In this document: piece after piece, positions 23,146 to 55,591 of the stretch
Numbering within the stretch: position 1 is the first letter of the stretch
Layout: the number at the start of each line of letters is the position of its first letter
Virus record (IMG/VR): IMGVR_UViG_3300032516_000009
Span: 1-64,000 of that record
Length of the DNA stretch: 64,000 nt
Direction: 5' to 3' (one strand)
DNA from: a virus
Notes under the pieces: generated by a model
Databases searched by the model: none
What the model saw: only the letters and a program-made list of their open reading frames with translations
Told to the model about the DNA's origin: nothing
Position numbers and translations under genes: made by a program

Positions 23146-23713
23146 ACTTTATTAAATAGGTAGTAGGAAAATCCATAAGTAGCGGTTTGGACGCTAAATC
23201 AGCCGTGATTTGCACACTCTTTTTGTCTTCAAAAATGAAAGTAATCCGCCCTATTAAGTTCTTATAATTTCCTTCAATAACCTTGATCTTATCTCCGATT
23301 TTGAAATTAACTTGTTTAAGATCATTCATACCCTTACGCAATGGCTGCAATTGAAAATCTTCTAATAATGAATATCTCGGATTTTTCACTCCACCAGTAC
23401 ATAAAACGGAACTAAAATACATAGTCTCTTGCAATCTCAGATATGAAACATTTTCTTCATATTTAATGAAGACATATCCATCCATGAAAAACATAGTTTG
23501 AGAATCGTCACGTACGGTCTGTGAAATAGCTGGCACGAATACATCAAGTTTCCTCCTTAAAATCTGATGGACAGATTTAACAATGAGAGGTATTTTCTTT
23601 TCTCGTTCTCCAGCAGGAGTAAGTTGGACTATTACCCATTTAGGCGGAGGGACTTTTACCTTTAACCCTGCCGATGAACTTTTCAATGAATTGTTTTTCC
23701 GTAAGAGGGACAT
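23138..23713 (-). CDS. nusG: NusG-family transcription elongation factor (NGN + KOW)
   Basis: WVIVQL..GERE, VFVP, FMDGYVFI, FKIGDKIKVIEGNYKNLIGRI. Confidence 0.85.
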   Translation of the reverse strand: MSLLRKNNSLKSSSAGLKVKVPPPKWVIVQLTPAGEREKKIPLIVKSVHQILRRKLDVFVPAISQTVRDDSQTMFFMDGYVFIKYEENVSYLRLQETMYFSSVLCTGGVKNPRYSLLEDFQLQPLRKGMNDLKQVNFKIGDKIKVIEGNYKNLIGRITFIFEDKKSVQITADLASKPLLMDFPTTYLIKYE

Positions 23714-25016
23714 GATCTTTGTTCAACTTTACGGAAACAACATCGGTATTCGTTTCAATTTCTGTCATGAGAGCCTGTTTTCCTACAATTTTCGAATCTA
23801 AAGACGTTAAATTCTCATCAGATGAAAATTTAATACCATCAAATTCGATAGTTTTTACCGAATGCTTAGGCTCAGATGTTGGTGCAAATTCAGCTTGTAA
23901 CTTTGGTTGAATTTCCGATTGAGTTTCAGACACAAGAGTTTCAGACATAGATTGATGTTCTCTAATCGGTTCAAATACTCTAGGTTGTGGTATGAATACG
24001 CTAATATCATTTCTAAATGATCGTTTCAATAAAACAGCCTCAATGTCAGAGATTACTGGCCTGTCTATTTTGCCTAGATCTTGTGCTACTTCAATAAGAT
24101 CACAGGGTAAATCGTCTCTAATCTCAATCGGATACGCATACCCAATCTTCATCTTTTGCCGCATGATGGACGAAATCGCTAATACTATGTTATGCCGAAT
24201 CCATGTCGGAGTTTCATTGGCTGCCAGTTTATCGAGCATTTCAAATGCAACAGCCGGCTTGGAGTCTATATTTCGCAATATTTGAAGTATCAAATCATAA
24301 TTATCAAAACCAAAAAGGGTGCGTACAGAATTGCATGTGATTGTTCCTAAATTAGAGAGAGACTCAATACTGATGATACAAGATCGAGGGCAACCACGAT
24401 GAATTTTAATTATTTGATATATAGCATCTTCTTCAACTTTGATTCTTTCTGAACGACATATATCCCTAATCCTATAACAAAGATCATCTTTAGATGGGTA
24501 TTGAATTGAATATTCTTCAACTCGAGATCGTATAGGCTCTCTGATCTTATGTGGTTCAGTAGTACATAATATGACAAATAGTGTACGATCCTCAATCGCT
24601 TTCAAAAGTGCATCTTGCGCAGACGCAGAAAGCCTCTGAGCTTCATCTATAATATAAATATTTGAACCTGGTAATGATTCATATTCAGATTCCTTAACCA
24701 TAGACCGAATTTTGTCTACGGTTCCTTGTGAGGCTGCATCTAATTCTTCAATATTCTGATTGGTCTCATTCAAAGCAGAAATACACGATGGGCATTCTCC
24801 ACAGGGTTCCCCGTCTTTAAGATCGATACAAACAAGTGCCCGCGCCACCAATCTGGCCAAAGTTGTCTTACCACACCCTTTGGGTCCCCCAAAGAGCATG
24901 GATTGTTCACTTAGAGTATGATTACGACTCCGTGTGAGTAAAAGCTTTCTGACTACATCATTACCTAAGACTTGATCGAATTTCCTGGGCCGATACTTTA
25001 GGTCTAATCGTAACAT
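23640..25016 (-). CDS. dnaX: DNA polymerase III clamp-loader gamma/tau subunit (likely start MLRLDLKYRP)
   Basis: KYRP, GPKGCGKTT, C..PCGECPSC Zn module, ELDAAS, IIDEAQ, IRSR. Confidence 0.93.
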   Translation of the reverse strand: MLRLDLKYRPRKFDQVLGNDVVRKLLLTRSRNHTLSEQSMLFGGPKGCGKTTLARLVARALVCIDLKDGEPCGECPSCISALNETNQNIEELDAASQGTVDKIRSMVKESEYESLPGSNIYIIDEAQRLSASAQDALLKAIEDRTLFVILCTTEPHKIREPIRSRVEEYSIQYPSKDDLCYRIRDICRSERIKVEEDAIYQIIKIHRGCPRSCIISIESLSNLGTITCNSVRTLFGFDNYDLILQILRNIDSKPAVAFEMLDKLAANETPTWIRHNIVLAISSIMRQKMKIGYAYPIEIRDDLPCDLIEVAQDLGKIDRPVISDIEAVLLKRSFRNDISVFIPQPRVFEPIREHQSMSETLVSETQSEIQPKLQAEFAPTSEPKHSVKTIEFDGIKFSSDENLTSLDSKIVGKQALMTEIETNTDVVSVKLNKDHVPLTEKQFIEKFIGRVKGKSPSA

Positions 25017-25033
25017 GAACATTAAAATTACAT

Positions 25034-26722
25034 TCACACTGTTTTATATAACACAAATTTTATCTTCTCTTTGCCCAAAACTTTAGTATACCCGAATTCC
25101 TCAGCGTATTCGCGTTCTTTCTTCCCCATTTTCACTGCATGTGTATATAGTGTCTTTTTATGCATCATCCACCCATTCTTATCAATATAATAGTAATCAG
25201 GAGCAATGGTACATATTTGTTTCCAATTACTCGATCTGTATATAGATCCAGTATGTCCATACGTCAAATCAGCAAATGACACCAGAGTTGATATTTTATT
25301 GAATGATTCAAATACCATGTCCGAACATCTAGATACAAACCAAGAAGCAAAATTCTTCTTGTGTCTTCTAGGATGTATACAGAATCTATCTAATTCTAAA
25401 ACTTCAGAAAATTTTTTCGATATTGATGTAGCTACTTCTTTTCTAACTGGTGTTGAAAATTTACAAATAGCTAATAACTCATCACACGCATACGCACCAA
25501 ATATGATCTTGGCAGCTCTACCATATTGTGCATAGTGAAATGAATTTAAAAACTCACGAGATTTATTAATATTTGTTATTTTAATTTTAATATCGTTGAA
25601 GTTAAAATCTACAAGTTTCTCTTCACCACGACCGTATAATTCATTCATTATCTTTTGTTTAACAATAAATGGGTTTAGGAAATCACGTTCGTGTAAATAT
25701 ATAATTCTAGACGATGGACACGATTTTTCCAGGTAAGAAAACTTGGCAGCGTCATTCCTCTTAGCATTTGGAAGAGAATGCCAGTATTCCCCTTGACATT
25801 CTATATATACATCAAATGATGGTATATAGAAATCAAACACATATGGACCGATATTCCTTTGTTCAACGCTGTTAACATTCATAATATCAAGTAATTTTTT
25901 GGTTATAATTTCTATACTAGAACGTTTACCAGATAATAAAAACTGAGAACGCACTTTAGCAAACTGATCACGAAATTCATTATTCTGCCATTGTCTTCTG
26001 GCTGATTCAACTTTCTTCAATTTATATTCTGGATTTGCCCACAACCGTTTTATGGCTTCACTTTGCGTTTGTCTATACTCTGGATCATTCCACAATAAAT
26101 AAGTAATACTTCGTTTATGATCCCTGCTGTTATCTCCTTTGAGTATTCCTCTAAGATGATCACCGAATTCAGATCTCCATCTATTAATCATTATATTGCT
26201 CTGTTTAGACCTTCTTTCCTCATCCCACGATAATTTACTCAACTTCTTCATCTTAGATGAGTATTGAGGATCATCCCATAATTGTTGCATAGCTAATGAA
26301 TATTTACTCGAATAATCCTTCTCTTTATGCATCCTCAGGGCCGTATTTATGATTTTTTCTTTATATCTATCATTCTCCCATAACTGTCTGGATGCAATAC
26401 TCTGTGTATTTCTACGTTCTTCATCCCATACTCTTTTCTCACTATTTATGATATTTGCTCTATACTTATCATCCTCCCACAACTTTTTCATGTTACGAGA
26501 TCTGTTTGATATGATTTCCTCTGATGCAGATCGACATTTACTACACAGACAATCTCCGAATTTTTTGACCGCCAATTTGACACAACGAACACTTGTTTCT
26601 CGCTGTGTAGTACAAATCCGGCAAGTCAAGAGTACTCTTGACTTGCCGGATTTGATCTCCCCAAATTTCTTTATGGTGTCGTTTAGATCTATATGTTGGA
26701 ATACATCATCCATATTTATCAT
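25034..26722 (-). CDS. Fusion: Trp-repeat DNA-binding region + Vsr/DUF559 endonuclease + Mom-like GNAT domain
   Basis: LWxDxxYR repeats; YVFDFYIP..IECQGEYWH; EFLNSFHY, ELDRFC, VSFADLTYGHTGSIYRSSNW. Confidence 0.7.
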   Translation of the reverse strand: MINMDDVFQHIDLNDTIKKFGEIKSGKSRVLLTCRICTTQRETSVRCVKLAVKKFGDCLCSKCRSASEEIISNRSRNMKKLWEDDKYRANIINSEKRVWDEERRNTQSIASRQLWENDRYKEKIINTALRMHKEKDYSSKYSLAMQQLWDDPQYSSKMKKLSKLSWDEERRSKQSNIMINRWRSEFGDHLRGILKGDNSRDHKRSITYLLWNDPEYRQTQSEAIKRLWANPEYKLKKVESARRQWQNNEFRDQFAKVRSQFLLSGKRSSIEIITKKLLDIMNVNSVEQRNIGPYVFDFYIPSFDVYIECQGEYWHSLPNAKRNDAAKFSYLEKSCPSSRIIYLHERDFLNPFIVKQKIMNELYGRGEEKLVDFNFNDIKIKITNINKSREFLNSFHYAQYGRAAKIIFGAYACDELLAICKFSTPVRKEVATSISKKFSEVLELDRFCIHPRRHKKNFASWFVSRCSDMVFESFNKISTLVSFADLTYGHTGSIYRSSNWKQICTIAPDYYYIDKNGWMMHKKTLYTHAVKMGKKEREYAEEFGYTKVLGKEKIKFVLYKTV

Positions 26723-27260
26723 TAGACATTAAACATTTATGCATATCAATCAGTGAGTCATTCCATTGTCCATTGCGCTCTGCTACTTCAGGAAATTCCT
26801 GTAGCGATGGAGCTTGAACACGCCATTTCATCTCCCCATCTTCTTCCTTCTCTTCTCCAATACATCGTGTTAGAAGATGATCAACAATGGCAGTTCGCTG
26901 TGTTTCATTATAATCATTCCATACTTCTAAAGCGATCTCCACCACAAAATCATATCCAGTAAGAAACGCATATTTACCAGACATTTTATATACATTGCCA
27001 GGTATAAGAATCCCAGCTCGCTTAGCCGCTCTATTCCTACAAATATATCTGATTTTGGCATCAGCAAGATGACTGTGGAATTTTGGTATTAACTTTAAAG
27101 CACGCTGTTCAGCGGCTTCAAAATCATCAAACAAGAGCGGAATCGGTTTAACTTTGTTCGGTTTCTCAGGGGCACCGTCACTCATATACCCTCCTACAGA
27201 AATGTCAAAACCTGTTTGTTGAAATAATTGACGAATGTCGTATCTCCGACTCCACGCCAA
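26706..27260 (-). CDS. Phage metallopeptidase-like protein with a degenerate zinc motif
   Basis: HSHLADAKIRY, YDFVVEI...W...QRTAIVDHLLTRC, LQEFPEVAERNGQW. Confidence 0.65.
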   Translation of the reverse strand: MAWSRRYDIRQLFQQTGFDISVGGYMSDGAPEKPNKVKPIPLLFDDFEAAEQRALKLIPKFHSHLADAKIRYICRNRAAKRAGILIPGNVYKMSGKYAFLTGYDFVVEIALEVWNDYNETQRTAIVDHLLTRCIGEEKEEDGEMKWRVQAPSLQEFPEVAERNGQWNDSLIDMHKCLMSNDKYG

Positions 27261-28012
27261 TATTCGTTGAGATCTTTAGTTTCTTTTCCGTTCAGAATGA
27301 CTTTAGGGTATTTGATATCATGTAAATTAATATGAGGCAGTTCACCAAATTTTTCTCGCAATGCTGCCACGCCCTTTCTTCCTCCAAGATCCAAATCCAG
27401 GCATGAATTTACATTCTGGACAAATCTAGAGATAAATTTTAGTTGATTAGCTCCAATGGAACTAGTAGTTAATGCCAATACATTACGCGAAACTAGACGT
27501 TCAAAGGTGAGCTGATCAAAAGCCCCCTCCACCAAGAACACCTCTTTTCTGGCCCATATGATATCGATATTCGGTCCCAATCCGAAGAAATAACCATATG
27601 GATAACGTCTAATTATGAATGTGTCATATCCTTTCGCGACCATTGATCTAATCTGAAAACCGATACATCCACCAGTATAATCAGTTAATGGTAGTACAAT
27701 ACATCCGCGAATTCGTCTTCCAATAAAGCGCTCACGTGTTTCATTGTCCCAAATAGACGACCATGTATTATATCTACAGCTGTCGCACCATAAATGTTTC
27801 TTTTCTCTGTTATTACAAATATCTGATTTATGTCCGGGATCTTTAGATGCGTCCGCACAATAATCATCAGGTATATAACCTATTCTATGTCTAATCCACT
27901 GTTCTTCAGATACGCATCTGCCAGTTAAATATGACTTAGCATCATCATTTTCTAAGAGAGCTGTAGACGCCCAATCTAAAAGATGATCAACAAAAGACAT
28001 CTGACCCCGCAT
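27194..28012 (-). CDS. dnaG: DnaG-type primase catalytic/TOPRIM core (no N-terminal CHC2 finger)
   Basis: YLTGR, IGY, IVLPL..G.CIGFQIR, LVEGAFD, DLD. Confidence 0.85.
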   Translation of the reverse strand: MRGQMSFVDHLLDWASTALLENDDAKSYLTGRCVSEEQWIRHRIGYIPDDYCADASKDPGHKSDICNNREKKHLWCDSCRYNTWSSIWDNETRERFIGRRIRGCIVLPLTDYTGGCIGFQIRSMVAKGYDTFIIRRYPYGYFFGLGPNIDIIWARKEVFLVEGAFDQLTFERLVSRNVLALTTSSIGANQLKFISRFVQNVNSCLDLDLGGRKGVAALREKFGELPHINLHDIKYPKVILNGKETKDLNEYWRGVGDTTFVNYFNKQVLTFL

Positions 28013-29193: not shown

Positions 29194-29856
29194 TTATTGA
29201 TTCACGACATCGTAGCATACAACTTCTGCAGGAGTAAGAGACACACGCTTATTCAATTTCAAACTGGAATCTTTGTGTCCTTCATATGAAACATGTGCAT
29301 AGTTAACAAATTCATCATTATGGGTAACCATAAGAATGTTGATTCCGGTTTCTTCTGATAATCGTCGCATGAAATCTCCGGCCATCGGTACATAATAATT
29401 AGCCAAAGATGCTAATGACTCATCCAATAACAATAAATTCCCCATTTGCATGCGAGTCATAATAGCTAATCTTAATATGAATGATATAAATGCAACTGCC
29501 CCACCACCAAATGAATCGAGTGGATCACCTTCAATTCCATCGTTATCAATGGAAAATCGCATTGATAATCGATTATATTTTAATTCTTGATTGATTTTAA
29601 AAATCAAATTTTGATCATGGATCACACTCTGAAGTCCACTTGTTATTAATTCAGATATTGAATTAACATTATTTTCTAATAGATCTTCTAGCCATGTTTT
29701 AAAAATTTCAGAACTCTTCTGATTCAATTCCGCAGTATAATGATTTTGATCTATCAAAATTTTCTCAGATTGAATTTGACTTCTGATCAAATCCCTATAC
29801 ATCAATAGCCGTTCCGCTTGTCGTTTGAAATTATCGAATTTCTCATACAAAGTCAT
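29194..29856 (-). CDS. sbcC: SbcC/Rad50 ATPase, C-terminal half
   Basis: ABC signature FGGG, Walker B LLLLDE, H-loop VTH; no Walker A. Confidence 0.8.
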   Translation of the reverse strand: MTLYEKFDNFKRQAERLLMYRDLIRSQIQSEKILIDQNHYTAELNQKSSEIFKTWLEDLLENNVNSISELITSGLQSVIHDQNLIFKINQELKYNRLSMRFSIDNDGIEGDPLDSFGGGAVAFISFILRLAIMTRMQMGNLLLLDESLASLANYYVPMAGDFMRRLSEETGINILMVTHNDEFVNYAHVSYEGHKDSSLKLNKRVSLTPAEVVCYDVVNQ

Positions 29857-30962
29857 TGATGAACCCTCATGCTTTGCAAATAGTGTAATGACTTGACAGC
29901 GGCCCCCTCTCCTTGAGACACTTCAAGAATAGTAGGTGTTTTTTGATGATGGAACCTTAACACCACTATTTTTTCTATAAATCCAATCATATTGACCAAA
30001 ACATTGATTGGAAAATCCGCCTTTATCTCATCTCCTTTTACAAATTTAACCGGAAAATTTGATATTTCATCTTGTCCGAAGAACAATTTCATTTGTCCAT
30101 CCTGAGCATGGATCCCCAGTCGTTGAGTTCCCTCGATCACTAGGGATGCCCATGATAAATTCTTAGCGAATTGTTCTCTGTCAATAAATACTTCGGTTTG
30201 AAAATCTGCCGAGTCCAGGATGGTTAGAGCAGGTTTCGGGGTTGTAATCCTACCGAGGATAAGTGTAGACCCCGTCTCAGGATCAGCCACACATAATTTT
30301 TGCTCATTACAAGACAAATCGATCGTTGAACCTAGACATTTTGCACAAAATGCGCGAATTATTGGAATATCAGAACTAATAATAGATAAATCAAGTTGCA
30401 TTCCATCTAAAAATGCAATAGACCCATAATATCTAGCATTGGAAACCGCACAATTTTGGTCCGAATAGAAATGAATTTGATTTATGCGCATATCCTCTTC
30501 TGTCTTGGTCTCTTTTATCAGAGCGGAACAAGATATTTGGCGCAATAGGTTATCAAATAAATTTTTGTCGATAGATGATTTAGTTGCATCACCCAGACCG
30601 ACACTTGGGTCTGGCATCTTTATTCTAACTATCTTCTTGGGAATTGAGGCCCGTCTGATTTGATCTCCCCCCTGCATTTTTACGGATAAAGTCTTATCGT
30701 TCACGCCAATCGATACTGAATCTAATTCAGTATCGAATAAAGCAATTCTATCTAAACTAACATACGTTTCATTCAATTCAAAATCAGCGGGAGACGATTC
30801 AGCCGGGATTACTACTTTAATATATTTTCGTTTATCTGCAGATGATATGACCATTGATGAATTATCAAATTTGATGTTGAAGTCTCCTATCTCCGGTTTT
30901 ATGATCCTTGCCAGAGATAACCCATCCTTTAATTTTTTCGGATCAAAGATAAATTCGGCCAT
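29853..30962 (-). CDS. dnaN: Probable DNA polymerase III beta sliding clamp
   Basis: 369 aa; three-domain clamp-like beta/alpha periodicity; dnaX, holA and holB in the same region. Confidence 0.6.
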   Translation of the reverse strand: MAEFIFDPKKLKDGLSLARIIKPEIGDFNIKFDNSSMVISSADKRKYIKVVIPAESSPADFELNETYVSLDRIALFDTELDSVSIGVNDKTLSVKMQGGDQIRRASIPKKIVRIKMPDPSVGLGDATKSSIDKNLFDNLLRQISCSALIKETKTEEDMRINQIHFYSDQNCAVSNARYYGSIAFLDGMQLDLSIISSDIPIIRAFCAKCLGSTIDLSCNEQKLCVADPETGSTLILGRITTPKPALTILDSADFQTEVFIDREQFAKNLSWASLVIEGTQRLGIHAQDGQMKLFFGQDEISNFPVKFVKGDEIKADFPINVLVNMIGFIEKIVVLRFHHQKTPTILEVSQGEGAAVKSLHYLQSMRVHQ

Positions 30963-40398: not shown

Positions 40399-43176
40399 CT
40401 ACGAACAACCGCTGGATTGTCCGCAAGAGTCGCAAAGGTAACACGCTCCGTTCCTACGCATGATGGAACCACAAACGGCACATGGAGGAGCATCCATGGA
40501 CATGCTCGGTGGTCTAACACTCTGAGACCATTCATGTGATGCATCTTCGACTGATTCTTCTGAATTCACGTTATCAGAAGACCTCTTATTGAGCCCAGTG
40601 ATTTCTCCTCCAAAATACTTAATATCTAACAATTTGAATAAATAATCATATAGACTGTCAGCAAATCTGATCCTAGAATTCTTAGTAAACCCTGATGGGT
40701 CAAATTTAGTATGGGCAAAACTACGAATGAGTTTATCCAATGGTACTCCATATTGGAGAGCAATACTCAATAATTGAGTAAACCCGTCAATGAACCCGTT
40801 CATAGTGGACCCGCTCTTACCAAGCTTAAGGAAAACTTCGCCCAACGCCCCATCAGGATACTCATTCATAATGACGTATCCTTTGCATTCACCGATTTCG
40901 AATCTATGACGGGATCCGTTGCAGTCCTCAGGTAACGGTTTGCGCTGAGTTACGTAAACAGGAGCTATCTCCGTCTTGTTATTTATCTTATCTTGCTTGG
41001 TCTCGAGCGGCTGAGATTTCTTACAGCCATCTCGATAAAGAGCGAGACATTTGATTCCAAGTTTCCACCCCTCCATATAAAGATTCGCTATCTCTTCTGC
41101 TGTGATATTATTAGGGAGATTGATCGTCTTGCTTTGCGCGCAAGTGATCAAAGGCTGGATGGCGGCCATCATTTCCAAATGTGCCATTGGGGATAAATAT
41201 CTCATGGAAGGACCAGTCGGCGCCGCACAATCAAATATTGGGAGATGATCCTGTTGCAGTCCGGGAGCCCCTTCAATATAGCCATTATCTTTAACATATT
41301 CGTATATCGATTCGACTGCATTGTGTGAATATCCAAGCCTGTTTAAAGCATCATGTATGGTGTGATTCACCAAGATTTCCTGTCCACCGCCAACCATTGA
41401 TTTATATGATACTAGCGAATAAGCCGGCTCTATACCAGTGGTATCCATGCCCATCATAAAAGAAGTTGTCCCGAGAGGGGCCTGAAGGGTTGCTTGGGAC
41501 ACGCTGTACCCGAATTTATGTCCCAGTCTTATTACTTCACTCCAGACTTCAGCACTCCTGGAAACTACGTCATCTCCAAGTAAATCTTTATCTATGCCCC
41601 ATCTATCGCATATATTCGCATTGGCTTCCTGATGCATTTTCATAATGCCGAGCATTTCTGATCGATTCTTCTCAAAATCGGGAAATGCACCACGTCTCGC
41701 CGCTAACTTAGACGAAACCAAATATGCATTACCAGTCATCAGACTAGCAAGACGAGCCGCAATTGAGCGGCCTTCATCAGAATCGTACCCATGTCCCAAT
41801 CTCATCAATAGAGCCCCGAGGTTTCCATAATTCAATCCAATAGATCGAAGCTGATGAGTATTCTTAGTAATTGCCTCGGTTGGATATGATGCTTTGTCTA
41901 CAATAATATCCTGAGATACTACGAAGACTCTGATTATGTGCTCGAAATGATCAATCCTCAATTCATCACGATCATTGAAGAATTTAGTTAGATTTATGCC
42001 ACACAAATTGCAAGCTGAATCGTCGATATTTAAAAACTCTGCACATGGATTCGATGATCTAATTTTTCCACTATTAGGCACCGTATGCCAACGATTGATC
42101 GTATCAGTATATTGAATCCCGGGATCTCCACACATCCAGGCTGCCTGAGATATTTCCTTCCATAAGTCCTTGGCCTTATATTTATGGATAACTTCGTTCG
42201 TCAATCTTCCCTTTGTAAACCATTCTTCATCATTTATAACAGCCATCATGAACGAATCAGGTATACTAACTGAATGATTTGCATTCTGATACATCACATT
42301 CTTGTATGCAGAATTTGGATCATCGTATGCTGAACTATATCCTATATTAATTAAATCGTGTGCTCTTTTTTCTTCAACAGCTTTGCATTTAATAAATCCG
42401 GGTCTTCCATCCCTTGTTTCTAGAATATCAGGATGGTCCATATCCAGAACAACTATCTTCGCAGCGTTACGCGTAGCGCCGCCAGATTTCATGGCTCCAG
42501 CAAACTGATCTAAACCACGCATAAATGCAATTGGTCCAGAGGTATACGATCCAGCTGAGATCTTTTCATATGAGGATCTGAGATTCGAAAAATTAGCTCC
42601 GGAACCAGATCCACTCTTAAAGATATTGAGTTCAGTTGATTGGAATGCAATAATTTCATCTAACGAATCACCAACGCTAGAAATAAAGCACGCTGATGCT
42701 ATATGTTTACGTCCTGGTACACCTAAATTAAACCAAACTGGAGAATTGAATGATCCAAATTGATGAAGCATAGCATAAATTAACTCATCTTCATATATTT
42801 CAGCATCAGAATTCGTATCAAAATATCCCTGCTCTTCTCCCCATTCACGTAAACAACTCGCCACCCTGGACAGCATTTGTTTAACTGAATCTTCTCGTAT
42901 TTCATTAATAACTCTAAAATATTTCTCAACGACTATGTTTGTGGTTGTCTGATTCCACCATGATGGAACCTCAACATTCCTTTGTTCAAATTTAATCTCG
43001 CCTTTATCTGATATAATGCGAGCATCAACTCGCTTCCATTCAACAGTATTGAATGGATGCAGTCCTTCTACGGTGAAAAATCTATCCCAATGACCGATGT
43101 TTATCCCTTCGGACAAAGAACTCTCCGGTCGACGTATATTATTCATAATATTAACGATTGCTACGTCGTTTGACAT
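40399..43176 (-). CDS. nrdJ: Class II (B12-dependent) ribonucleotide reductase
   Basis: FNSPVWFN, SACFI, NPCAE, ACNL, APLGT, TTGIEP, SKTINLP, YRDG, C-terminal CAVC..CDSCG.SSGCS. Confidence 0.95.
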   Translation of the reverse strand: MSNDVAIVNIMNNIRRPESSLSEGINIGHWDRFFTVEGLHPFNTVEWKRVDARIISDKGEIKFEQRNVEVPSWWNQTTTNIVVEKYFRVINEIREDSVKQMLSRVASCLREWGEEQGYFDTNSDAEIYEDELIYAMLHQFGSFNSPVWFNLGVPGRKHIASACFISSVGDSLDEIIAFQSTELNIFKSGSGSGANFSNLRSSYEKISAGSYTSGPIAFMRGLDQFAGAMKSGGATRNAAKIVVLDMDHPDILETRDGRPGFIKCKAVEEKRAHDLINIGYSSAYDDPNSAYKNVMYQNANHSVSIPDSFMMAVINDEEWFTKGRLTNEVIHKYKAKDLWKEISQAAWMCGDPGIQYTDTINRWHTVPNSGKIRSSNPCAEFLNIDDSACNLCGINLTKFFNDRDELRIDHFEHIIRVFVVSQDIIVDKASYPTEAITKNTHQLRSIGLNYGNLGALLMRLGHGYDSDEGRSIAARLASLMTGNAYLVSSKLAARRGAFPDFEKNRSEMLGIMKMHQEANANICDRWGIDKDLLGDDVVSRSAEVWSEVIRLGHKFGYSVSQATLQAPLGTTSFMMGMDTTGIEPAYSLVSYKSMVGGGQEILVNHTIHDALNRLGYSHNAVESIYEYVKDNGYIEGAPGLQQDHLPIFDCAAPTGPSMRYLSPMAHLEMMAAIQPLITCAQSKTINLPNNITAEEIANLYMEGWKLGIKCLALYRDGCKKSQPLETKQDKINNKTEIAPVYVTQRKPLPEDCNGSRHRFEIGECKGYVIMNEYPDGALGEVFLKLGKSGSTMNGFIDGFTQLLSIALQYGVPLDKLIRSFAHTKFDPSGFTKNSRIRFADSLYDYLFKLLDIKYFGGEITGLNKRSSDNVNSEESVEDASHEWSQSVRPPSMSMDAPPCAVCGSIMRRNGACYLCDSCGQSSGCS

Positions 43177-44077
43177 TCTTTACTTCCTCCGATAAACGAA
43201 CGATTTCTAATTCTAGTCCGAGATGAGCAGAATCATCTCCACGCTTGTGTGCGATATCTAAGGCGCATATGATATCTAAACTATGGAGTAAAGATTGTCT
43301 ACTCCACAACCCGACACGCGGCAGTATCACATTCTTGTAAACAAATGGGTGCACGCCAACCCTCTCAATGATACTGTTGATCGGCGTCTTTTCGATTATT
43401 AACGCATCGATTCTTATATATTGCAATACATGACGCTGTAGGTATGCTATAATCCACCCGGTTTCGTCCGCTCTCTCCTGGAGCATATCGTAAAAAGCCA
43501 ACGCCCGATCGGTATATCCCTCGCATATTGCGTCCACAATTCCCTTAGGAGACAACTCAGCAGAAAAGCAAATAAGAGCTTTTGCTATTTCCGGTCTGAC
43601 ACTATCCCCAGAGGAGGTGAGAATCGCCAGCTTACGAATCTCGGATGAGATTTTTCGTAGGCTCTTTCCATGGCTCACAAAAAGGGCACCAGCAACTGGA
43701 CTTAGATCTATATTAAGAGATCTACCCTCATCGAGAATCCATTTTATTATTTGGTTATTAGATTCGAATGTCTTGAATTTTGGAAAATTATGTATTCTTC
43801 TAGCTCTATCATCCTTCAATGCTTTCTCTTTAGATACTAAAATTAATATATCAGAATTACCAAAAGGCAATTCCGGGATCTGATCAACGTTCCAAAGAAT
43901 GAATACCCTGGACTCGCCAGAAAGTGGAATGCTTTGTATTTCATCTAAATACTGAGGTAAATTCGATTCACAATCGAATTGGATAATGCTTCTGATTAAC
44001 GAACTGCATGCTTCATCAAAAGCTGCCCGCTCTTTGAGAAATTCTTCCTCCCCATTAATAATGATAAGAGTGGACAA
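43151..44077 (-). CDS. holA: DNA polymerase III delta subunit
   Basis: IINGEEEFL, ISSEIRKL, GVHPFV, D.AHKRG. Confidence 0.8.
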   Translation of the reverse strand: MSTLIIINGEEEFLKERAAFDEACSSLIRSIIQFDCESNLPQYLDEIQSIPLSGESRVFILWNVDQIPELPFGNSDILILVSKEKALKDDRARRIHNFPKFKTFESNNQIIKWILDEGRSLNIDLSPVAGALFVSHGKSLRKISSEIRKLAILTSSGDSVRPEIAKALICFSAELSPKGIVDAICEGYTDRALAFYDMLQERADETGWIIAYLQRHVLQYIRIDALIIEKTPINSIIERVGVHPFVYKNVILPRVGLWSRQSLLHSLDIICALDIAHKRGDDSAHLGLELEIVRLSEEVKNVKRRSNR

Positions 44078-44093: not shown

Positions 44094-44900
44094 CTAAAAT
44101 GCTAAACAAGCTCTCTGCCAATGAATTTCGGCATTAATTGACGGAATTCTTTTTAGATTTGAAACAAAAGATAATAAATTAATGGCAATATTGCGATCAA
44201 GCTTCTGCCCTAGAGAATCCCTAATAGCCATAGAACAAATACGTGAAACAATATCTATTTCGATACTAGATTTACTCGAAATTTTCTTAATAACATCAGG
44301 GATTGAAACAACCATTGGGTTTACAAGGCCGGTGACTATATTGATCATAAGTTTATATAATTCTTCATATGATTTATCACTGATTATTTCATGATATAAA
44401 CCGGGACGACCATCACATACTTTAATTGCGAATTCATCAATTGATAGAGACTCCGCATTGATGAATTCTTCCATTTCAGATCTAGTCAGAGGATTCCACC
44501 CTATTCTACGTGTAATTCTGGAATGTAGTGGGCTCAGAAGCCAATGATCGTCATTACAAATGAGAAATATCTTCAAATGTTCAAACGGCTCTTCAAACAA
44601 TTTCAGGTATGCATCCTGAGCCGGCTCGCTAAGACGATCAGCACCATTTATGACCAAGGCCTGGAATGGGCTGTATATGGACGAGATCGATAAAGAAGAT
44701 GCAACGTATCGAGCTGCGTCTATTGTGTGATCAACTACGAATATATCAGAATCAGTAAATACAACAGCATGCAACTGCTCCATAATGAAACTATGTTTTC
44801 CAATATTCGATGGACCAACTATTGCGATGACTTCAGATATAGAATTATTCAGAGTTGTCTTTAGAATTTCCTGCTGCCGGGAGTTTCCGAATATTTTCAT
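44094..44900 (-). CDS. holB: DNA polymerase III delta-prime subunit
   Basis: GPSNIGK, ADRLSEPAQDAYLKLFEEP, LLSPLHSR. Confidence 0.85.
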   Translation of the reverse strand: MKIFGNSRQQEILKTTLNNSISEVIAIVGPSNIGKHSFIMEQLHAVVFTDSDIFVVDHTIDAARYVASSLSISSIYSPFQALVINGADRLSEPAQDAYLKLFEEPFEHLKIFLICNDDHWLLSPLHSRITRRIGWNPLTRSEMEEFINAESLSIDEFAIKVCDGRPGLYHEIISDKSYEELYKLMINIVTGLVNPMVVSIPDVIKKISSKSSIEIDIVSRICSMAIRDSLGQKLDRNIAINLLSFVSNLKRIPSINAEIHWQRACLAF

Positions 44901-50639: not shown

Positions 50640-51083
50640 TTATAGATATATAACCATGGTTTTTTGGGCATTACACGTAGCAATAACAGGTTTTTCCGAT
50701 TTTGGTCCAATTTGATTTGAAGTATAACCAAATTGTTTTAATGTCTCAATCTCATCTATAGAGTTATGTCCTTTCTTTGAATATGAATTGAAAAATTCTA
50801 TCGGATTTAACTGTTCGCTATTATTTTTCTTCCAATTTGATTTGATCTGATCACATTTTGTACACGCATGTGGAAAACCAGACCTAGATGGTTTTATCAT
50901 TTGACATTTTCGTCTTGAAAATTCTTTTGAACAGAAATCACATCTAAGCACAATCAATTTGATGCTACATCGACTGATGTCTTCAATACGATAACCATAA
51001 ATTTCATGTGTACGGTTTGATAACAACATAGGGAGTACTCCATGCAACAGGGAAAAATTAATTTTATCATCGACCAGGCACAT
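50640..51083 (-). pseudogene. Truncated homing-endonuclease-like Zn/DNA-binding fragment
   Basis: CDFC...CTKC; repeated module truncated at VIATC. Confidence 0.4.
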
Positions 51084-52208
51084 GGGTCAAGTGGAAAAGG
51101 TAAACTATCACCATGGTTGGTTGATCATTTCAATTTTAAAAATGTCAGTTCAAGTAACTTCCCGAATGCTGGCCACTGTCTTAGATATACAGATGAATAT
51201 AAATTCATGGCCAAAGTTATACCAACATCGGCTGCATTAAAGAAATTTCAAAATCGTGACATTGTATGCTGGTTAAGCCCAGGGTCTGGCTTCGATCCTG
51301 AAAGACTAATATTAGAATGGAATGAATCTGGCAGACCACAAATATTTATTCACGAAAGAGCCAGCATAGTAACAAAAGAACATAAATTAAGAGAACAGTC
51401 TGGTATTGATTCAACAAAGCATATTGCATCAACTATGCAAGGATCAGCCACTGCGCTAACAGACAAAATACTCAGAAAAGCCAATTGCGTTCTAGCTAAA
51501 AATGTTGATTGGAATAAATATGTGAATCAAAATGATTTATCAGAATTCATGAAGACAGTGAAAATTATGACTGGACAAGAATTTAGAAACAGAACACATG
51601 ATGAATTAAATAAGATGAACGGATTCTGCCATGAAGTATCCCAAGGATACGCACTTTCAATTGATCATGGATCACATTATCCAATGTGCACGAGTAGAAA
51701 CTGCACACTTCAAGCTGGAATGGATCAAATGGCAATTCCACCAAAAATGGTGGGTGATGTTTATTTGAATATCAGATCAATACCGATTCGCGTTGGCAAC
51801 GTGATTGAAAACGGAGAACAAAAGGGATATTCAGGTGATTTTTATCCGGATAGTATTGAATTAACCTGGGAACAGGTGGCCAAAAATGCTAAGATGCCAG
51901 ATGAAGAAGTTGAAAAATTAAAGAAATCTGAGCTAACATCAGTTACAAAACGTCAGCGCAGATGTGCAACTTTTTCATGGATAAACCTTAAAGATGCCGT
52001 TCGGGTCAATGGGGCTACTAGACTCTGCGTCAATTTCATCCAGTATATTAACTGGAATGACCGTGGGTTAAAAGGCGGAAGAGAAGCTTTTGAGAAGTTA
52101 TCCAGAGAAAGTCGTGGTTTCATTTCTAAGATTGAAGAGGAAGTAAATGTTCCTGTGGTTCTGGTCGGAACCGGTGCTCTCCACGATGAGGTTATCTCTC
52201 TTTTATGA
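51042..52208 (+). CDS. purZ: PurZ-like N6-succino-2-amino-dAMP synthetase (adenylosuccinate synthetase family)
   Basis: GSSGKGK (Ser in place of PurA catalytic Asp), NAGH, EVSQG, YPMCTSR, TSVTKRQRRCATFS, NFIQY in place of TKLD. Confidence 0.8.
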   Translation: MQQGKINFIIDQAHGSSGKGKLSPWLVDHFNFKNVSSSNFPNAGHCLRYTDEYKFMAKVIPTSAALKKFQNRDIVCWLSPGSGFDPERLILEWNESGRPQIFIHERASIVTKEHKLREQSGIDSTKHIASTMQGSATALTDKILRKANCVLAKNVDWNKYVNQNDLSEFMKTVKIMTGQEFRNRTHDELNKMNGFCHEVSQGYALSIDHGSHYPMCTSRNCTLQAGMDQMAIPPKMVGDVYLNIRSIPIRVGNVIENGEQKGYSGDFYPDSIELTWEQVAKNAKMPDEEVEKLKKSELTSVTKRQRRCATFSWINLKDAVRVNGATRLCVNFIQYINWNDRGLKGGREAFEKLSRESRGFISKIEEEVNVPVVLVGTGALHDEVISLL

Positions 52209-52262
52209 GACTATTTGATTAAAGTAGAATTCTAATTTGTTCTTGTGTTGGAGGTACTTCAA

Positions 52263-52541
52263 ATGCTTCGTGTCACTTTCATTCTTTGTGCTCTCGCGCT
52301 CGTAGCCTGTACCGAGGAATCGACTTCGAATGTCGGCGGCTCCGGTGGAACCACTGTAGTTGGAGGATCCGGAGGATCCGGAGGTGCTACTGGCGGCAGT
52401 ACGGCCGGCGGGATGGGCGGAGTTGGCGGAGTTGGCGGAGTCGTTGTTGGAGGGGCCGGTGGATCTGGCGGCGCCGTAGTAGGAGGGAATGGTGGTGAGT
52501 CTCCTACTGGGGGATCTGGCGGAGCAGCTGGCAACGGATAA
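52263..52541 (+). CDS. Gly-rich lipoprotein
   Basis: GGAGG SD; lipobox LALVAC; GGS/GGA repeats; GC-rich. Confidence 0.75.
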   Translation: MLRVTFILCALALVACTEESTSNVGGSGGTTVVGGSGGSGGATGGSTAGGMGGVGGVGGVVVGGAGGSGGAVVGGNGGESPTGGSGGAAGNG

Positions 52542-52602
52542 TATAAATCCGTTGACACCCGACAGGACTTTGGGAATAGGCCATATAACCTATTTCCTCT
52601 CC

Positions 52603-53118
52603 TTACGCGACGGCTGTCACAAAGCCCGTCCACTGTTCAGGGATATCAGTACCCTGAACTCTTAGCGGGCCTACTGGAAGGGCATCCGGACGGCGAGGAA
52701 CGGTATGCAAGCGCATACCGGCTTCTTCCGGAGTCTTGTCTCCTTTACCCATATTACAGGCACGGCAAGCGCATACTACATTCTCCCACGTTGTCTCACC
52801 TCCGCGAGATTTCGGAAAAACGTGGTCAAAAGTTAAACGGGAAATTGGAAACTTCTCCAAGCAGTATTGGCAACGTCCGCCATCTCTGGTTACGACGTTA
52901 AGCTTGGAAAACTTGACCTTGGGCTTGATCACCTTAGTCTTACGATGGATACGGACCACCGCTGGAACCTTCATCGATATGGATGGAGAACGAACTTCCT
53001 CATCATAATCGATGATAGATTCAACCTTCTTCTGATACAGATCCACGATGGCATCACGCCAAGTGATGATCTGTATTGGCATATACCAACTTGTTAGCAC
53101 CAAGGTCCTGCGTTCCAT
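52603..53118 (-). CDS. HNH endonuclease (McrA/HNH_5-like)
   Basis: RDGGRCQYC, TFDHVFPKSRGG, WENVVCAC..CN..KG. Confidence 0.92.
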   Translation of the reverse strand: MERRTLVLTSWYMPIQIITWRDAIVDLYQKKVESIIDYDEEVRSPSISMKVPAVVRIHRKTKVIKPKVKFSKLNVVTRDGGRCQYCLEKFPISRLTFDHVFPKSRGGETTWENVVCACRACNMGKGDKTPEEAGMRLHTVPRRPDALPVGPLRVQGTDIPEQWTGFVTAVA

Positions 53119-53175
53119 AGCTTAAGCCTCCTCCGCTCGTTGCTTCAGTCTCCACATGATTCTTCCCTCTGTCTA

Positions 53176-53193
53176 AGTACACTACAGTGTACT
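53176..53193. promoter_or_regulatory. Perfect 8-bp inverted repeat between divergent genes
   Basis: AGTACACT-ac-AGTGTACT. Confidence 0.5.
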
Positions 53194-53218
53194 AGAGTTT
53201 TAGTGCAATTTACAAGAT

Positions 53219-53383
53219 ATGAAGCCGTCACAAACTGCAGGTAAACTACGTCAAATTGCTACTGCTATTGAGAACTCAAAGCGACCCGACCGTAATCTGG
53301 TTGCAGAAGATCTCAAGAAAATAATTGCAAGTTTAACAGAGCCGGATACTGCCGATAAGCCTGAGGCAGAAAATAAAGAATAA
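53219..53383 (+). CDS. MKPSQ-leader family protein 2 (54 aa; not in the ORF track)
   Basis: MKPSQTAGKLRQIATAIENSKRPDRNLVAEDLKKIIASLTEPDTADKPEAENKE*. Confidence 0.75.
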   Translation: MKPSQTAGKLRQIATAIENSKRPDRNLVAEDLKKIIASLTEPDTADKPEAENKE

Positions 53384-53387
53384 TACG

Positions 53388-53463
53388 TGGTGCGGGCGAT
53401 TGGACTCGGACCAACGACTTCCAGCTTGTCGAGCTGGCGTTCTACCAACTGAACTACGCCCGC
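53388..53463 (-). tRNA. tRNA-Val(GAC), with C33 and a TCCGA T-loop
   Basis: Cloverleaf; CCAGC-TCGACAA-GCTGG; CCA encoded. Confidence 0.85.
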
Positions 53464-53469
53464 GATAAA

Positions 53470-53495
53470 TAGTAGGCTGGGACTTGAACCCACAA
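53470..53495 (-). pseudogene. tRNA 3'-half remnant
   Basis: TGGG-TTCAAGT-CCCA T-arm plus acceptor strand ending ACTA. Confidence 0.5.
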
Positions 53496-53504
53496 GCTAA
53501 GTAG

Positions 53505-53588
53505 TGGGCGCGGAGGGAATCGAACCCTCACATCCTTGCGGATCTCCGGGTTTGAGCCGGAGGCGGCTGCCTGTTACGCCACGCGCCC
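53505..53588 (-). tRNA. tRNA-Leu(CAA)
   Basis: TCCGG-CTCAAAC-CCGGA; long variable arm. Confidence 0.9.
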
Positions 53589-53597
53589 ATAAGATAG

Positions 53598-53682
53598 TGG
53601 GATCGGAGGGACTCGAACCCTCACGCCGATGAACGGCACCAGACTCTGATTCTGGCTTGGCTACCAGTTACAACACGATCCC
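53598..53682 (-). tRNA. tRNA-Leu(CAG), with A32
   Basis: CCAGA-ATCAGAG-TCTGG; long variable arm. Confidence 0.85.
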
Positions 53683-53687
53683 TTGAG

Positions 53688-53771
53688 TGTCTAGGGCGGG
53701 AGTCGAACCCGCAAGCCCTTTCGGGCGCTCGCACCTGAAACGAGAGCGGTTACCTGTTTCGCCACCTAGAC
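53688..53771 (-). tRNA. tRNA-Leu(CAG), second copy
   Basis: CTCGT-TTCAGGT-GCGAG; long variable arm. Confidence 0.88.
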
Positions 53772-53826
53772 AAAAGACTTTTCGAATTGGTACGGTATGG
53801 AAGACGCATAATGAAGGAGGAACTTC

Positions 53827-54612: not shown

Positions 54613-54695
54613 TGCGGATGATAGGAATCGAACCTACACGGGATCTCTCCCACTTCCACCTCAAAGAAGCGCGTATTCCATTTCGCCACATCCGC
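54613..54695 (-). tRNA. tRNA-Leu(GAG)
   Basis: CTTCT-TTGAGGT-GGAAG; long variable arm. Confidence 0.9.
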
Positions 54696-54722
54696 ATAAG
54701 CTTTTGTTCAGGTTAATTTAAT

Positions 54723-55052
54723 ATGCAAAATCAATTGCATAAAATTGCAATATTACTAACTACTCCTAAAGAGTATATTGTTATTCATCGGAGTATGGAT
54801 GATGTATATACTATCGTAATCAGTACGGATCAGGTTAGACCAGCGTCTGGAGATTATGCTATCATAAATTTACCCAATGGTGATTCTGTCACCATTGCTA
54901 AAGATTTAGATACTATCAAGGCAAATGAAGATATGACAAACACGGATCTATTGGAAGCATTGCACGAATTTGGAATTATTACGATGGATGATAACGGTAA
55001 TTATGTTGATAAGGACGGCAATCCTGTCGGTCAGGGTAAATCGTCCCCATAA
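54723..55052 (+). CDS. Hypothetical protein (HKIA N-terminus, late-type upstream motif)
   Basis: 109 aa; CTTTTGTT-N14-ATG. Confidence 0.6.
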   Translation: MQNQLHKIAILLTTPKEYIVIHRSMDDVYTIVISTDQVRPASGDYAIINLPNGDSVTIAKDLDTIKANEDMTNTDLLEALHEFGIITMDDNGNYVDKDGNPVGQGKSSP

Positions 55053-55156
55053 TATTTGAGATCCATCTGAATTCCTGATCTCATATCCACCCAAATCTTA
55101 GAATTTGAATGGAAAAATTGAGAAATTCCAAAAATACTTCAGTAACAAAGTGTAAG

Positions 55157-55225: not shown

Positions 55226-55260
55226 GATAGTTAATTCTCCATAGCTACACAGCCATGTAG

Positions 55261-55582: not shown

Positions 55583-55591
55583 GACGCGCTC

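What the first reader, a model, noticed from the sequence alone, without database searches (positions are those of the whole stretch)
51042..52208. PurZ-type synthetase in a large phage with a Pol III-type replisome: possible 2-aminoadenine (Z) genome in an unusual lineage
Seen: GSSGKG where PurA has GDEGKG, RRCATFS where PurA has RRCGWFD, and NFIQY where PurA has TKLD. These are the substitutions that distinguish PurZ (dGMP/ATP) from PurA (IMP/GTP). Established: characterised Z-phages use PurZ with MazZ/DatZ and a family-A DpoZ or PrimPol. Here the visible replication genes are dnaX, holA, holB, dnaN and dnaG, implying a C-family replicase. No mazZ or datZ is recognisable in the window. Z would also stabilise and protect an AT-rich genome.
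Basis: partly seen in the sequence, partly recalled or inferred. Interest (0 to 1): 0.82.

Follow-up and report, generated by a model that had tools for sequence, protein, structure and literature searches.

The report
PurZ-type synthetase in a huge phage

Summary
The ORF at 51042-52208 (+, 388 aa) is real and intact, and the three quoted motifs are present.

**Identity.** It belongs to the PurZ clade:
- It has Ser where PurA has the catalytic Asp13.
- It has the Phe/Tyr pair that binds ATP.
- It carries 7 of the 8 published residues that separate PurZ from PurA.
- Its best structure matches are the phiVC8 and S-2L PurZ proteins.
- In a tree it sits on the PurZ side, after PurZ0 splits off.

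**Context.** The window lies on a 110,922-bp virus contig estimated to be 26% complete. More than 500 homologues exist, many on 300-445-kb contigs.

**Replication genes.** Pol III-type accessory genes are confirmed in the window (dnaX, holA, holB and dnaG-like; dnaN-like only weakly). The inferred C-family replicase is not supported:
- Five of five complete close relatives lack DnaE.
- All five carry a PolA of about 950-1000 aa that is not a DpoZ.
- All five carry a YfbR-like HD gene, and all seven close relatives examined have a MazG-like gene next to it.
- Two of the five also encode PurB.

The contig itself holds none of these genes, which is uninformative for a 26% fragment.

**Verdict.** PurZ activity is likely (about 0.8). 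Z in the virion DNA is plausible (about 0.6) but has no chemical evidence. This is a new member of a known kind, in a new genomic setting.

The parts
51042..52208 (+). PurZ-clade synthetase gene (388 aa); predicted N6-succino-2-amino-2'-deoxyadenylate synthase
   Evidence: ORF; PF00709 3e-27; best NCBIfam model is PurZ NF038379 at 169.5 bits, below the 300 cut-off; PHROG 1211 1e-45; PDB PurZ 6FM1/7ODX; tree; residues
49930..50634 (+). Conserved 234-aa protein of unknown function, always just upstream of purZ in this clade
   Evidence: Next to purZ in 20 of 20 close-clade loci and absent within 3 kb in more distant clades. More than 150 homologues, none with a Pfam domain. AF2 model pLDDT 75, with no convincing fold match
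50640..51083 (-). Antisense Cys-rich 147-aa ORF inside a ~400-bp insert between the neighbour gene and purZ; probably a small mobile or orphan ORF, not part of the pathway
   Evidence: No family hit. No homologue in G001, where the intergenic gap is 20 nt
44094..44900 (-). Pol III delta'-like (holB-like) clamp-loader subunit
   Evidence: PF13177 3.6e-10
43151..44077 (-). Pol III delta-like (holA-like) clamp-loader subunit
   Evidence: PF21694 6.2e-10
23640..25037 (-). Clamp-loader ATPase (dnaX-like)
   Evidence: phrog_5846 1.5e-49, 'clamp loader of DNA polymerase'
29853..30962 (-). Probable beta-clamp (dnaN-like); weak match
   Evidence: PF02768 E=0.0024, below cut-off; conserved in G001
27194..28012 (-). 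DnaG-like primase (Toprim)
   Evidence: PF13155 2.1e-7, PF08275 1.5e-4
40399..43176 (-). Class II (B12-dependent) ribonucleotide reductase, which supplies deoxynucleotides
   Evidence: PF02867 1e-118, PF08471

Best explanation
The gene encodes a PurZ-clade enzyme. Shown: its sequence family, its diagnostic residues and its tree position. [quoted passage not shown] Adenylosuccinate lyase then converts dSMP to dZMP; the host supplies this enzyme, or the phage does in some relatives. Host kinases raise dZMP to dZTP, and the phage polymerase inserts Z opposite T. Complete close relatives of this ~400-kb phage also carry a YfbR-like HD phosphohydrolase directly followed by a MazG-like pyrophosphohydrolase. 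These are the likely functional counterparts of DatZ and MazZ (removing dA nucleotides and producing dGMP), but their specificity is only inferred. Those relatives also carry a ~950-1000-aa family-A polymerase outside the DpoZ families, alongside a sliding clamp and clamp loader. The most likely outcome is substantial or complete replacement of A by Z in virion DNA, giving resistance to host nucleases. The replicase of this lineage is most likely the family-A enzyme, not DnaE.
For: Residues (numbered as in bioRxiv 10.1101/2025.10.22.683976 section 4): window Ser16 = S14; Pro248 = P233; Tyr268 = Y244; Trp276 = W252; Thr299 = T262; Phe332 = F295; Tyr335 = Y298. All are in the dZ-associated state.
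Relatives: every one of the 150 best cluster representatives with a readable P-loop has Ser at this site, and none has GDEGKG.
Tree: PurA outgroup 100*, PurZ0 splits first 100*, and the window protein is nested in the 138-row PurZ side (95*), in a clade with the phiVC8 and Acinetobacter-phage PurZ.
Profiles: the best NCBIfam model is PurZ, and the best PDB matches are the two solved PurZ proteins.
Conservation: more than 500 homologues, at least 120 of them 55-87% identical, on contigs up to 445 kb. All 46 IMG/VR loci checked keep the signature. Inteins sit inside some homologues, as is usual for important genes.
Companion genes in complete close relatives: YfbR-like HD 5/5. A MazG-like gene with intact ExxE...ExxD motifs abuts it in 7/7 relatives examined, and its profile matches iMazG and DCTPP1. 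The HD profile matches YfbR at 3e-12 and S-2L DatZ at 1e-4. PolA 5/5. purB is above the TIGR00928 cut-off in G007 and G011.
Literature: purZ, datZ and mazZ alone convert E. coli DNA, so an unspecialised polymerase suffices (PMC8342488).
Against: There is no chemical or kinetic evidence for Z.
The contig itself (26% of the genome) holds none of the companion genes.
The HD protein is closer to the dNMP nucleotidase YfbR than to DatZ. The MazG-like Pfam hit is below cut-off (24.9 vs 27 bits). No MazG PF03819 or DUF550 PF04447 was found in the five genomes searched for them (G001-G005 and G000-G004 respectively), including complete G001 and 72%-complete G002.
These genes lie about 200 kb from purZ rather than in a Z-cluster.
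The PolA scores far below both DpoZ models: 47.5/500 and 29/350 bits.
The PurZ NCBIfam score is below its cut-off: 169.5/300 bits.
The residue equivalent to phiVC8 F12 is His.
Palindrome statistics are ambiguous. In G001, GC-only 6-mers are more avoided than A/T-containing ones (O/E 0.70 vs 0.95), but AGTACT is also strongly avoided.
Confidence: 0.6

Rival explanations
1. The enzyme is an active PurZ, but the phage substitutes Z only partially or transiently, or uses dZTP/dSMP production mainly to disturb host nucleotide pools. Packaged DNA would then be mostly canonical.
For: No recognisable DatZ- or DpoZ-family member was found. The HD protein is YfbR-like. The PolA resembles ordinary Pol I. 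A ~400-kb genome needs a large dZTP flux. More distant PurZ-bearing huge phages lack the HD and MazG-like genes altogether. AGTACT is avoided in G001.
Against: In every characterised case, PurZ goes with full A-to-Z replacement (PMC12884076). The conserved HD plus MazG-like pair, and purB in some relatives, fit a complete pathway.
Confidence: 0.22
2. It is a PurZ-clade protein with a different substrate, for example GMP or another 6-oxopurine nucleotide. It would then feed a different modified purine or a non-DNA product.
For: The protein is only 29-34% identical to characterised PurZ. It is below the NCBIfam PurZ cut-off. It has His at the F12-equivalent position lining the base pocket. A clade-specific unknown partner gene lies upstream.
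Against: [quoted passage not shown] Position 12 varies across the whole PurZ side (W/F/A/H).
Confidence: 0.1
3. It is an ordinary auxiliary adenylosuccinate synthetase (PurA function, IMP to AMP) that boosts adenylate supply for a very large genome.
For: Some huge phages do carry a canonical PurA, for example the 735-kb LR756501 with GDEGKG. Two relatives also carry purB.
Against: The catalytic Asp13 is replaced by Ser, and the GTP-specifying K/D motif by F..Y. The protein falls outside the PurA clade with 100* support. PurA profiles score lower than the PurZ profile.
Confidence: 0.04

Closest known systems
PurZ of Vibrio phage phiVC8 (PDB 6FM1/6FKO) and cyanophage S-2L (PDB 7ODX)
   Same: Same fold family (PF00709). 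Ser in place of PurA Asp13. Same TxVT and NF..Y motifs. Same side of the PurZ/PurZ0 split in the tree.
   Different: Only about 31% identical. It is 388 aa against 343 aa, with extra segments. It has His at the F12 position. It is not next to datZ, mazZ or dpoZ. The host genome is about 10 times larger.
Z-cluster (purZ-datZ-mazZ, with or without dpoZ) of sipho- and podoviruses
   Same: Complete relatives have a PurZ, an HD phosphohydrolase of the YfbR/DatZ superfamily, an all-alpha MazG-like pyrophosphohydrolase and a family-A polymerase.
   Different: The genes are dispersed: purZ lies about 200 kb from the HD/MazG-like pair in G001. The HD protein is nearer YfbR than DatZ. The MazG-like protein matches neither PF03819 nor PF04447. 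The PolA is not DpoZ-1 or DpoZ-2. Sliding clamp and clamp loader are present. purB is phage-encoded in some relatives.
PurZ0 of Arthrobacter phage Wayne and Gordonia phages (PDB 7VF6)
   Same: Also has Ser at the Asp13 position and is also viral.
   Different: PurZ0 splits off before the clade holding the window protein (100*). It lacks the F..Y pair (N/F and A/Q at those columns). PDB 7VF6 matches only at 7e-8. No dutZ-type dUTPase was found in G001.
Canonical PurA (E. coli; also the 735-kb huge phage LR756501)
   Same: Same superfamily and P-loop scaffold.
   Different: PurA has GDEGKG and the K..D guanine motif. It forms the outgroup clade with 100* support.
Flavobacterium phage MaF61 (167.8 kb, cultured) 'putative adenosuccinate synthetase'
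   Same: It has the GSSGKG signature and forms the sister group to the 50-row clade that holds the window protein.
   Different: Only 28.6% identical by tblastn, and 447 aa long. No PolA or DnaE Pfam hit in its genome. Its paper does not mention the gene.

Membership tests
PurZ (succino-amino-deoxyadenylate synthase) clade | Ser replaces the catalytic Asp13 of PurA in the P-loop (GSxGKG) | tested here: met
   Window Ser16 aligns with phiVC8 S14 and E. coli D14. 136 of 138 rows on the PurZ side have Ser.
PurZ (succino-amino-deoxyadenylate synthase) clade | Phe295/Tyr298 (phiVC8 numbering), which stack on the ATP adenine, replace the PurA guanine-specific K..D motif | tested here: met
   Window Phe332 and Tyr335 in NFIQY. 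Residue roles are taken from bioRxiv 10.1101/2025.10.22.683976.
PurZ (succino-amino-deoxyadenylate synthase) clade | Thr262, plus the differential residues P233, Y244 and W252 | tested here: met
   Window T299, P248, Y268 and W276.
PurZ (succino-amino-deoxyadenylate synthase) clade | Aromatic residue at phiVC8 F12 lining the 2-amino pocket | tested here: inconclusive
   The window has His14. The column varies across the PurZ side (W 66, F 36, A 22, H 4).
PurZ (succino-amino-deoxyadenylate synthase) clade | Groups with characterised PurZ, apart from PurA and PurZ0, in a phylogeny | tested here: met
   IQ-TREE quick, LG+G4, 143 rows: PurA 100*, PurZ0 100*, PurZ side 95*. No archaeal PurA was included.
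PurZ (succino-amino-deoxyadenylate synthase) clade | Score above the curated cut-off of NCBIfam NF038379 | tested here: not met
   169.5 bits against a cut-off of 300. It is still the top model. G001's homologue scores 193 bits. The model is a narrow 'exception' HMM, so this shows divergence from the seed phages rather than exclusion from the clade.
PurZ (succino-amino-deoxyadenylate synthase) clade | Catalyses dGMP + Asp + ATP -> dSMP and rejects IMP | not testable with these tools
   Needs an enzyme assay.
Z-genome system (ZTGC DNA) | dATP-removing DatZ-type HD enzyme | tested here: inconclusive
   None in the contig. A YfbR-like HD is present in 5/5 complete close relatives. Its profile matches YfbR at 3.4e-12 and DatZ 6ZPA at only 1.2e-4.
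Z-genome system (ZTGC DNA) | dGTP/dATP pyrophosphohydrolase (MazZ, DUF550 or DutZ) | tested here: inconclusive
   PF03819 and PF04447 were absent from the five genomes each searched; PF00692 (dUTPase) matched only in G002. A MazG-like (PF12643) protein, below cut-off but with intact metal motifs, follows the HD gene in 7/7 relatives.
Z-genome system (ZTGC DNA) | DpoZ-family polymerase | tested here: not met
   G001's PolA scores 47.5 bits on DpoZ_1 (cut-off 500), 29 bits on DpoZ_2 (cut-off 350) and 258 bits on generic Pol I. DpoZ is not obligatory: S-2L lacks it (PMC8342488).
Z-genome system (ZTGC DNA) | 2-aminoadenine present in virion DNA | not testable with these tools
   Needs LC-MS or polymerase-kinetics sequencing.
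Phage with a C-family (DnaE) replicase | DnaE catalytic core (PF07733) encoded by the phage | tested here: not met
   None in the contig. 0/5 complete close relatives have it. phmmer with the G002 DnaE-like ORF finds nothing in G000 or G001. The rest of this phage's own genome could not be reached.

The most novel reading that the evidence does not exclude
Whole clades of 350-440-kb huge phages have ZTGC genomes. If so, they built the pathway independently of the known small Z-phages: a PurZ with a clade-specific partner protein, a YfbR-like HD plus MazG-like pair, phage-encoded PurB in some, and a clamp-assisted non-DpoZ family-A polymerase. Sister lineages that carry PurZ with DnaE-type polymerases would then be the first C-family replicases copying Z-DNA.
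Probability: 0.45. Interest if true: 0.8.

Novelty: new member of a known kind. Interest (0 to 1): 0.6.

Why it matters
Z-DNA genomes have so far been shown chemically only in phages of about 40-60 kb, all siphoviruses or podoviruses. The papers held here describe seven groups of isolate phages and mention no huge phages.

If these 350-440-kb phages are Z-substituted, three things follow:
- The largest known non-canonical genomes would grow about tenfold.
- Z-DNA replication would be shown to work with sliding-clamp replisomes.
- New, independently recruited enzymes for dA exclusion and dGMP supply would become available for synthetic biology.

It would also affect metagenomics, because Z-DNA resists many restriction and tagmentation steps. 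One caveat: PurZ homology surveys already predict more than 2000 Z-viruses (PMC13128860), so the gene family itself is not new.

Tried and rejected
1. Reaching the rest of this phage's own genome. An exact 41-mer scan of metagenome contigs found nothing. The companion-gene question could therefore be answered only in relatives.

2. Function of the conserved 234-aa upstream neighbour. No Pfam or NCBIfam hit. The AF2 model has pLDDT 75. Foldseek against PDB gave nothing at E<=0.001. VIA-align wide gave a best Z of 5.8 over about 55 residues, which is a common small motif. It stays unexplained, and its link to purZ may be only clade-level synteny.

3. Palindrome-avoidance test for Z protection. 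In G001, GC-only 6-mers are more depleted (O/E 0.70; GCCGGC 0 seen vs 36 expected) than A/T-containing ones (0.95). However, AGTACT is also depleted, and G000 shows no signal. I judged this too ambiguous to count as evidence.

4. NDT/DmtZ (PF05014), dUTPase and guanylate kinase searches were negative in G001.

5. The 'Mom-like' PHROG hit of ORF 25034-26722 overlaps HNH and homing-endonuclease hits, and the ORF is absent from G001. I treated it as a mobile endonuclease, not an adenine-modification gene.

6. Tong et al. 2023 (PurZ0 paper) is not held in the library, so I could not check whether its IMG/VR survey lists these contigs.

7. No archaeal PurA could be obtained by reference for the tree.

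Full report
**Observation.** One search lists a single intact ORF at 51042..52208 (+), 388 aa. Its translation contains HGSSGKGK, KRQRRCATFSW and VNFIQYINW, so the three quoted motifs are real. The protein matches:
- Pfam Adenylsucc_synt at 3.2e-27.
- PHROG 1211, the PurZ group, at 1.2e-45.
- NCBIfam: the top model is PurZ NF038379 at 169.5 bits. That is ahead of archaeal-type PurA at 149.9 bits and bacterial purA at 101.4 bits, but all three are below their curated cut-offs.
- PDB: phiVC8 PurZ (6FM1, 2.5e-27) and S-2L PurZ (7ODX, 1.2e-26) lead. Pyrococcus PurA follows at 2.9e-19 and PurZ0 7VF6 at 7e-8.

**What the window is.** The window is the first 64 kb of a 110,922-bp IMG/VR virus contig. 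The contig is linear, 41.5% GC, and CheckV rates it 26% complete, which implies a genome of about 400 kb. It encodes:
- a terminase, a portal and a RecD2 helicase, each interrupted by inteins;
- a class II ribonucleotide reductase;
- a two-gene NAD-dependent ligase, a 5'-3' exonuclease and 12 tRNAs.

| Gene | Coordinates | Note |
|---|---|---|
| dnaX-like | 23640-25037 | |
| holA-like | 43151-44077 | |
| holB-like | 44094-44900 | |
| DnaG-like | 27194-28012 | |
| dnaN-like | 29853-30962 | weak match only |

**Is it PurZ or PurA?** Three independent lines agree that it is PurZ.

1. Residues. [quoted passage not shown] In my alignment the window protein has S16, T299, F332, Y335, P248, Y268 and W276, all in the PurZ state. 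Only the F12 position differs (His14), and that column varies across the family (W/F/A/H).

2. Relatives. An exhaustive HMMER search of 1.84 billion cluster representatives found 1577 relatives. Every one of the best 150 with a readable P-loop has GS[STCEG]GKG, and none has GDEGKG.

3. Phylogeny. I built a 143-row maximum-likelihood tree (IQ-TREE quick search, LG+G4). The outgroup was E. coli PurA, an Acinetobacter PurA and the GDEGKG PurA of the 735-kb phage LR756501. PurZ0 of Arthrobacter phage Wayne and Gordonia phage Frizzle splits off first (100*). The window protein then sits inside the remaining 138-row group (95*), in a 78-row clade that also holds phiVC8 PurZ and an Acinetobacter-phage PurZ. 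Its own clade has supports of 96*, 99* and 99* at 7, 9 and 42 rows.

This matches the published picture of a single PurZ group in which Ser is invariant in phage sequences (PMC12884076). There are two limits. No archaeal PurA could be included. The search was the quick mode, not the careful mixture model.

**Distribution.** The protein has more than 500 homologues at E<=1e-3. At least 120 are 55-87% identical, on contigs up to 444,958 bp, and the identical protein is recorded on a 323,057-bp contig. Two IMG/VR scans returned 50 loci, many on 300-436-kb contigs and several with direct terminal repeats and 100% completeness. Every locus checked keeps the GSxGKG, TxVT and NF..Y signature. Window positions 577-52208 are collinear with 251,958-296,851 of the complete 393,220-bp genome G001 (IMGVR_UViG_3300012980_000004). 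That region includes purZ (60.5% identical) and the 234-aa gene just upstream of it.

**The rest of the pathway.** The contig has no MazG, DUF550, HD_3, dUTPase, NDT, PolA or DnaE domain. For a 26% fragment, this absence says little. I therefore examined complete close relatives, meaning those whose PurZ is 54-62% identical to the window's. The five complete genomes are G001, G007, G009, G010 and G011.

| Feature | Result in close relatives |
|---|---|
| YfbR-like HD (PF12917, 1e-18 to 3e-25) | 5 of 5 complete genomes |
| MazG-like gene abutting the HD gene | 7 of 7 relatives examined (the five plus partial G002 and G014) |
| Family-A polymerase, 945-998 aa (about 1e-66) | 5 of 5 complete genomes |
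| DnaE core (PF07733) | 0 of 5 complete genomes |
| purB above the TIGR00928 cut-off (474 and 418 bits) | G007 and G011 |

- The gene next to the HD gene encodes a conserved ~165-aa core. Its GEAGE...ELPDV motifs are the ExxE/ExxD metal ligands of all-alpha NTP pyrophosphohydrolases.
- Its Pfam MazG-like score is below threshold (24.9 bits against 27). A profile of the seven sequences matches integron MazG (2Q5Z, 0.002) and DCTPP1.
- The HD profile matches E. coli YfbR best (3.4e-12) and S-2L DatZ weakly (6ZPA, 1.2e-4).
- The PolA resembles ordinary Pol I (Klenow, 2.6e-36). It scores far below both DpoZ models.
- Only the partial genomes G002 and G014 carry a ~570-aa DnaE-like ORF. It has palm and finger domains and no PHP domain. 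It has no counterpart in G000 or G001.

So the lineage has plausible functional counterparts of DatZ, MazZ and a polymerase. They belong to different sub-families from those of the known Z-phages, and they lie about 200 kb from purZ.

**Other huge-phage lineages.** More distant lineages have a PurZ only 38-42% identical but with the signature intact (G017, G018, G019, G021, G026). These do encode DnaE and lack the HD and MazG-like genes.

**Mechanism.** Shown: family, residues, clade, conservation and the gene content of relatives. Inferred from characterised PurZ enzymes (PMC12884076; PMC8342488):
1. dGMP + Asp + ATP gives dSMP.
2. PurB converts dSMP to dZMP.
3. Host kinases give dZTP.
4. dA nucleotides are removed by the HD enzyme, and dGMP is supplied by the MazG-like enzyme or by nuclease action.
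5. The PolA inserts Z opposite T.

Czernecki et al. showed that purZ, datZ and mazZ alone convert E. coli DNA, so a Z-specific polymerase is not required. I put PurZ-type activity at about 0.8 and substantial Z in virion DNA at about 0.6.

**Weak points.**
- There is no chemistry.
- The specificities of the HD and MazG-like enzymes are unknown.
- The PurZ NCBIfam score is below its cut-off.
- The palindrome test was ambiguous.
- The conserved 234-aa upstream gene is unexplained. It has no family hit, and fold searches gave at best Z 5.8. It is next to purZ in 20 of 20 close-clade loci but not in more distant ones.

**Novelty.** The searchable papers describe Z-phages as seven groups of isolate phages (sipho- and podoviruses per PMC8599892). 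'PurZ' with 'jumbo' returned only one phage paper, which mentions PurZ once, and '2-aminoadenine' with 'jumbo phage' returned one unrelated paper. Neither of the two main PurZ papers mentions metagenomes, huge or jumbo phages, Pol III or clamps. One paper notes that homology surveys predict more than 2000 PurZ viruses, so these contigs may already sit unnoticed in such lists. The key survey paper is not held. My verdict is a new member of a known kind in a notable new setting, with interest 0.6.

Noticed in passing
window 4446-8957(-), 9658-12999(-), 33433-36750(-): The portal, large terminase and RecD2 helicase genes are each interrupted by inteins carrying LAGLIDADG endonucleases. The G001 homologues are 596, 645 and 760 aa, without the inserts.
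   Followed up: partly
P0241 (786 aa), P0243 (1197 aa); L004 8740-10001: PurZ homologues in related phages carry one or two inteins with LAGLIDADG domains. In G004, purZ is interrupted after codon 46 by about 1.26 kb.
   Followed up: partly
window 38472-39608(+) and 36773-37558(-): The NAD-dependent DNA ligase appears split into two genes on opposite strands: adenylation plus OB domains in one, HhH plus BRCT in the other. The split is conserved in G001.
   Followed up: no
window 52245-60826: A GC-rich island (50-55% GC against about 38% in the flanks) holds 12 tRNA genes, two HNH-type ORFs, a Gly-rich 98-aa ORF and a 1304-aa ORF (55592-59506, -) with no Pfam or PHROG hit. This region breaks the synteny with G001.
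   Followed up: no
window 61508-63886(+): A 792-aa protein matches phrog_2426 (unknown function, 577 bits) and is about 34% identical to proteins of Ackermannviridae and other 150-170-kb phages. It has no homologue in G001.
   Followed up: partly
window 25034-26722(-): A 562-aa HNH/homing-endonuclease ORF (it also hits a 'Mom-like' PHROG) is inserted next to the clamp-loader gene. It is absent from G001.
   Followed up: no
window 50640-51083(-): A Cys-rich 147-aa antisense ORF lies in a ~400-bp insert between the 234-aa neighbour gene and purZ and overlaps the purZ start by 42 nt. G001 has only 20 nt at this position.
   Followed up: no
G001 93584-94908; L043, L095-L099: A YfbR-like HD gene and a MazG-like gene form a conserved pair in all seven close relatives examined, usually with overlapping stop and start codons. 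In G001 the MazG-like protein has an extra C-terminal multiubiquitin domain.
   Followed up: yes
G007 82045-83466 (L100 3046-4467); G011 351119-352570 (L101 2620-4071): Two complete close relatives encode a bona fide adenylosuccinate lyase (purB; TIGR00928 at 474 and 418 bits). They therefore carry both steps from dGMP to dZMP themselves.
   Followed up: yes
G017, G018, G019, G021, G026 (loci L070, L074, L078, L082, L089): More distant huge-phage lineages combine a PurZ-signature gene with DnaE-type polymerase genes (often split). They lack the YfbR-like and MazG-like genes.
   Followed up: partly
L037 (LR756501.1 345350-346267): The 735-kb uncultured phage carries a canonical GDEGKG PurA, so huge phages include both PurA and PurZ carriers.
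   Followed up: partly
G001 whole genome: GCCGGC occurs 0 times against 36 expected. GGGCCC, GGCGCC, AGGCCT and AGTACT are also strongly avoided. GC-only 6-mer palindromes have O/E 0.70, against 0.95 for those containing A/T.
   Followed up: partly
G001 296854-297420 and 298872-300275: A NADAR-domain gene and a ThyX gene lie directly downstream of purZ in G001. In the window this position is taken by the tRNA/GC-rich island.
   Followed up: no
L007 1456-3156 (G002 249796-251496): A DnaE-like ORF of only 566 aa has palm and finger domains but no PHP or beta-binding region. It is present in the partial relatives G002 and G014 and absent from the five complete ones.
   Followed up: partly
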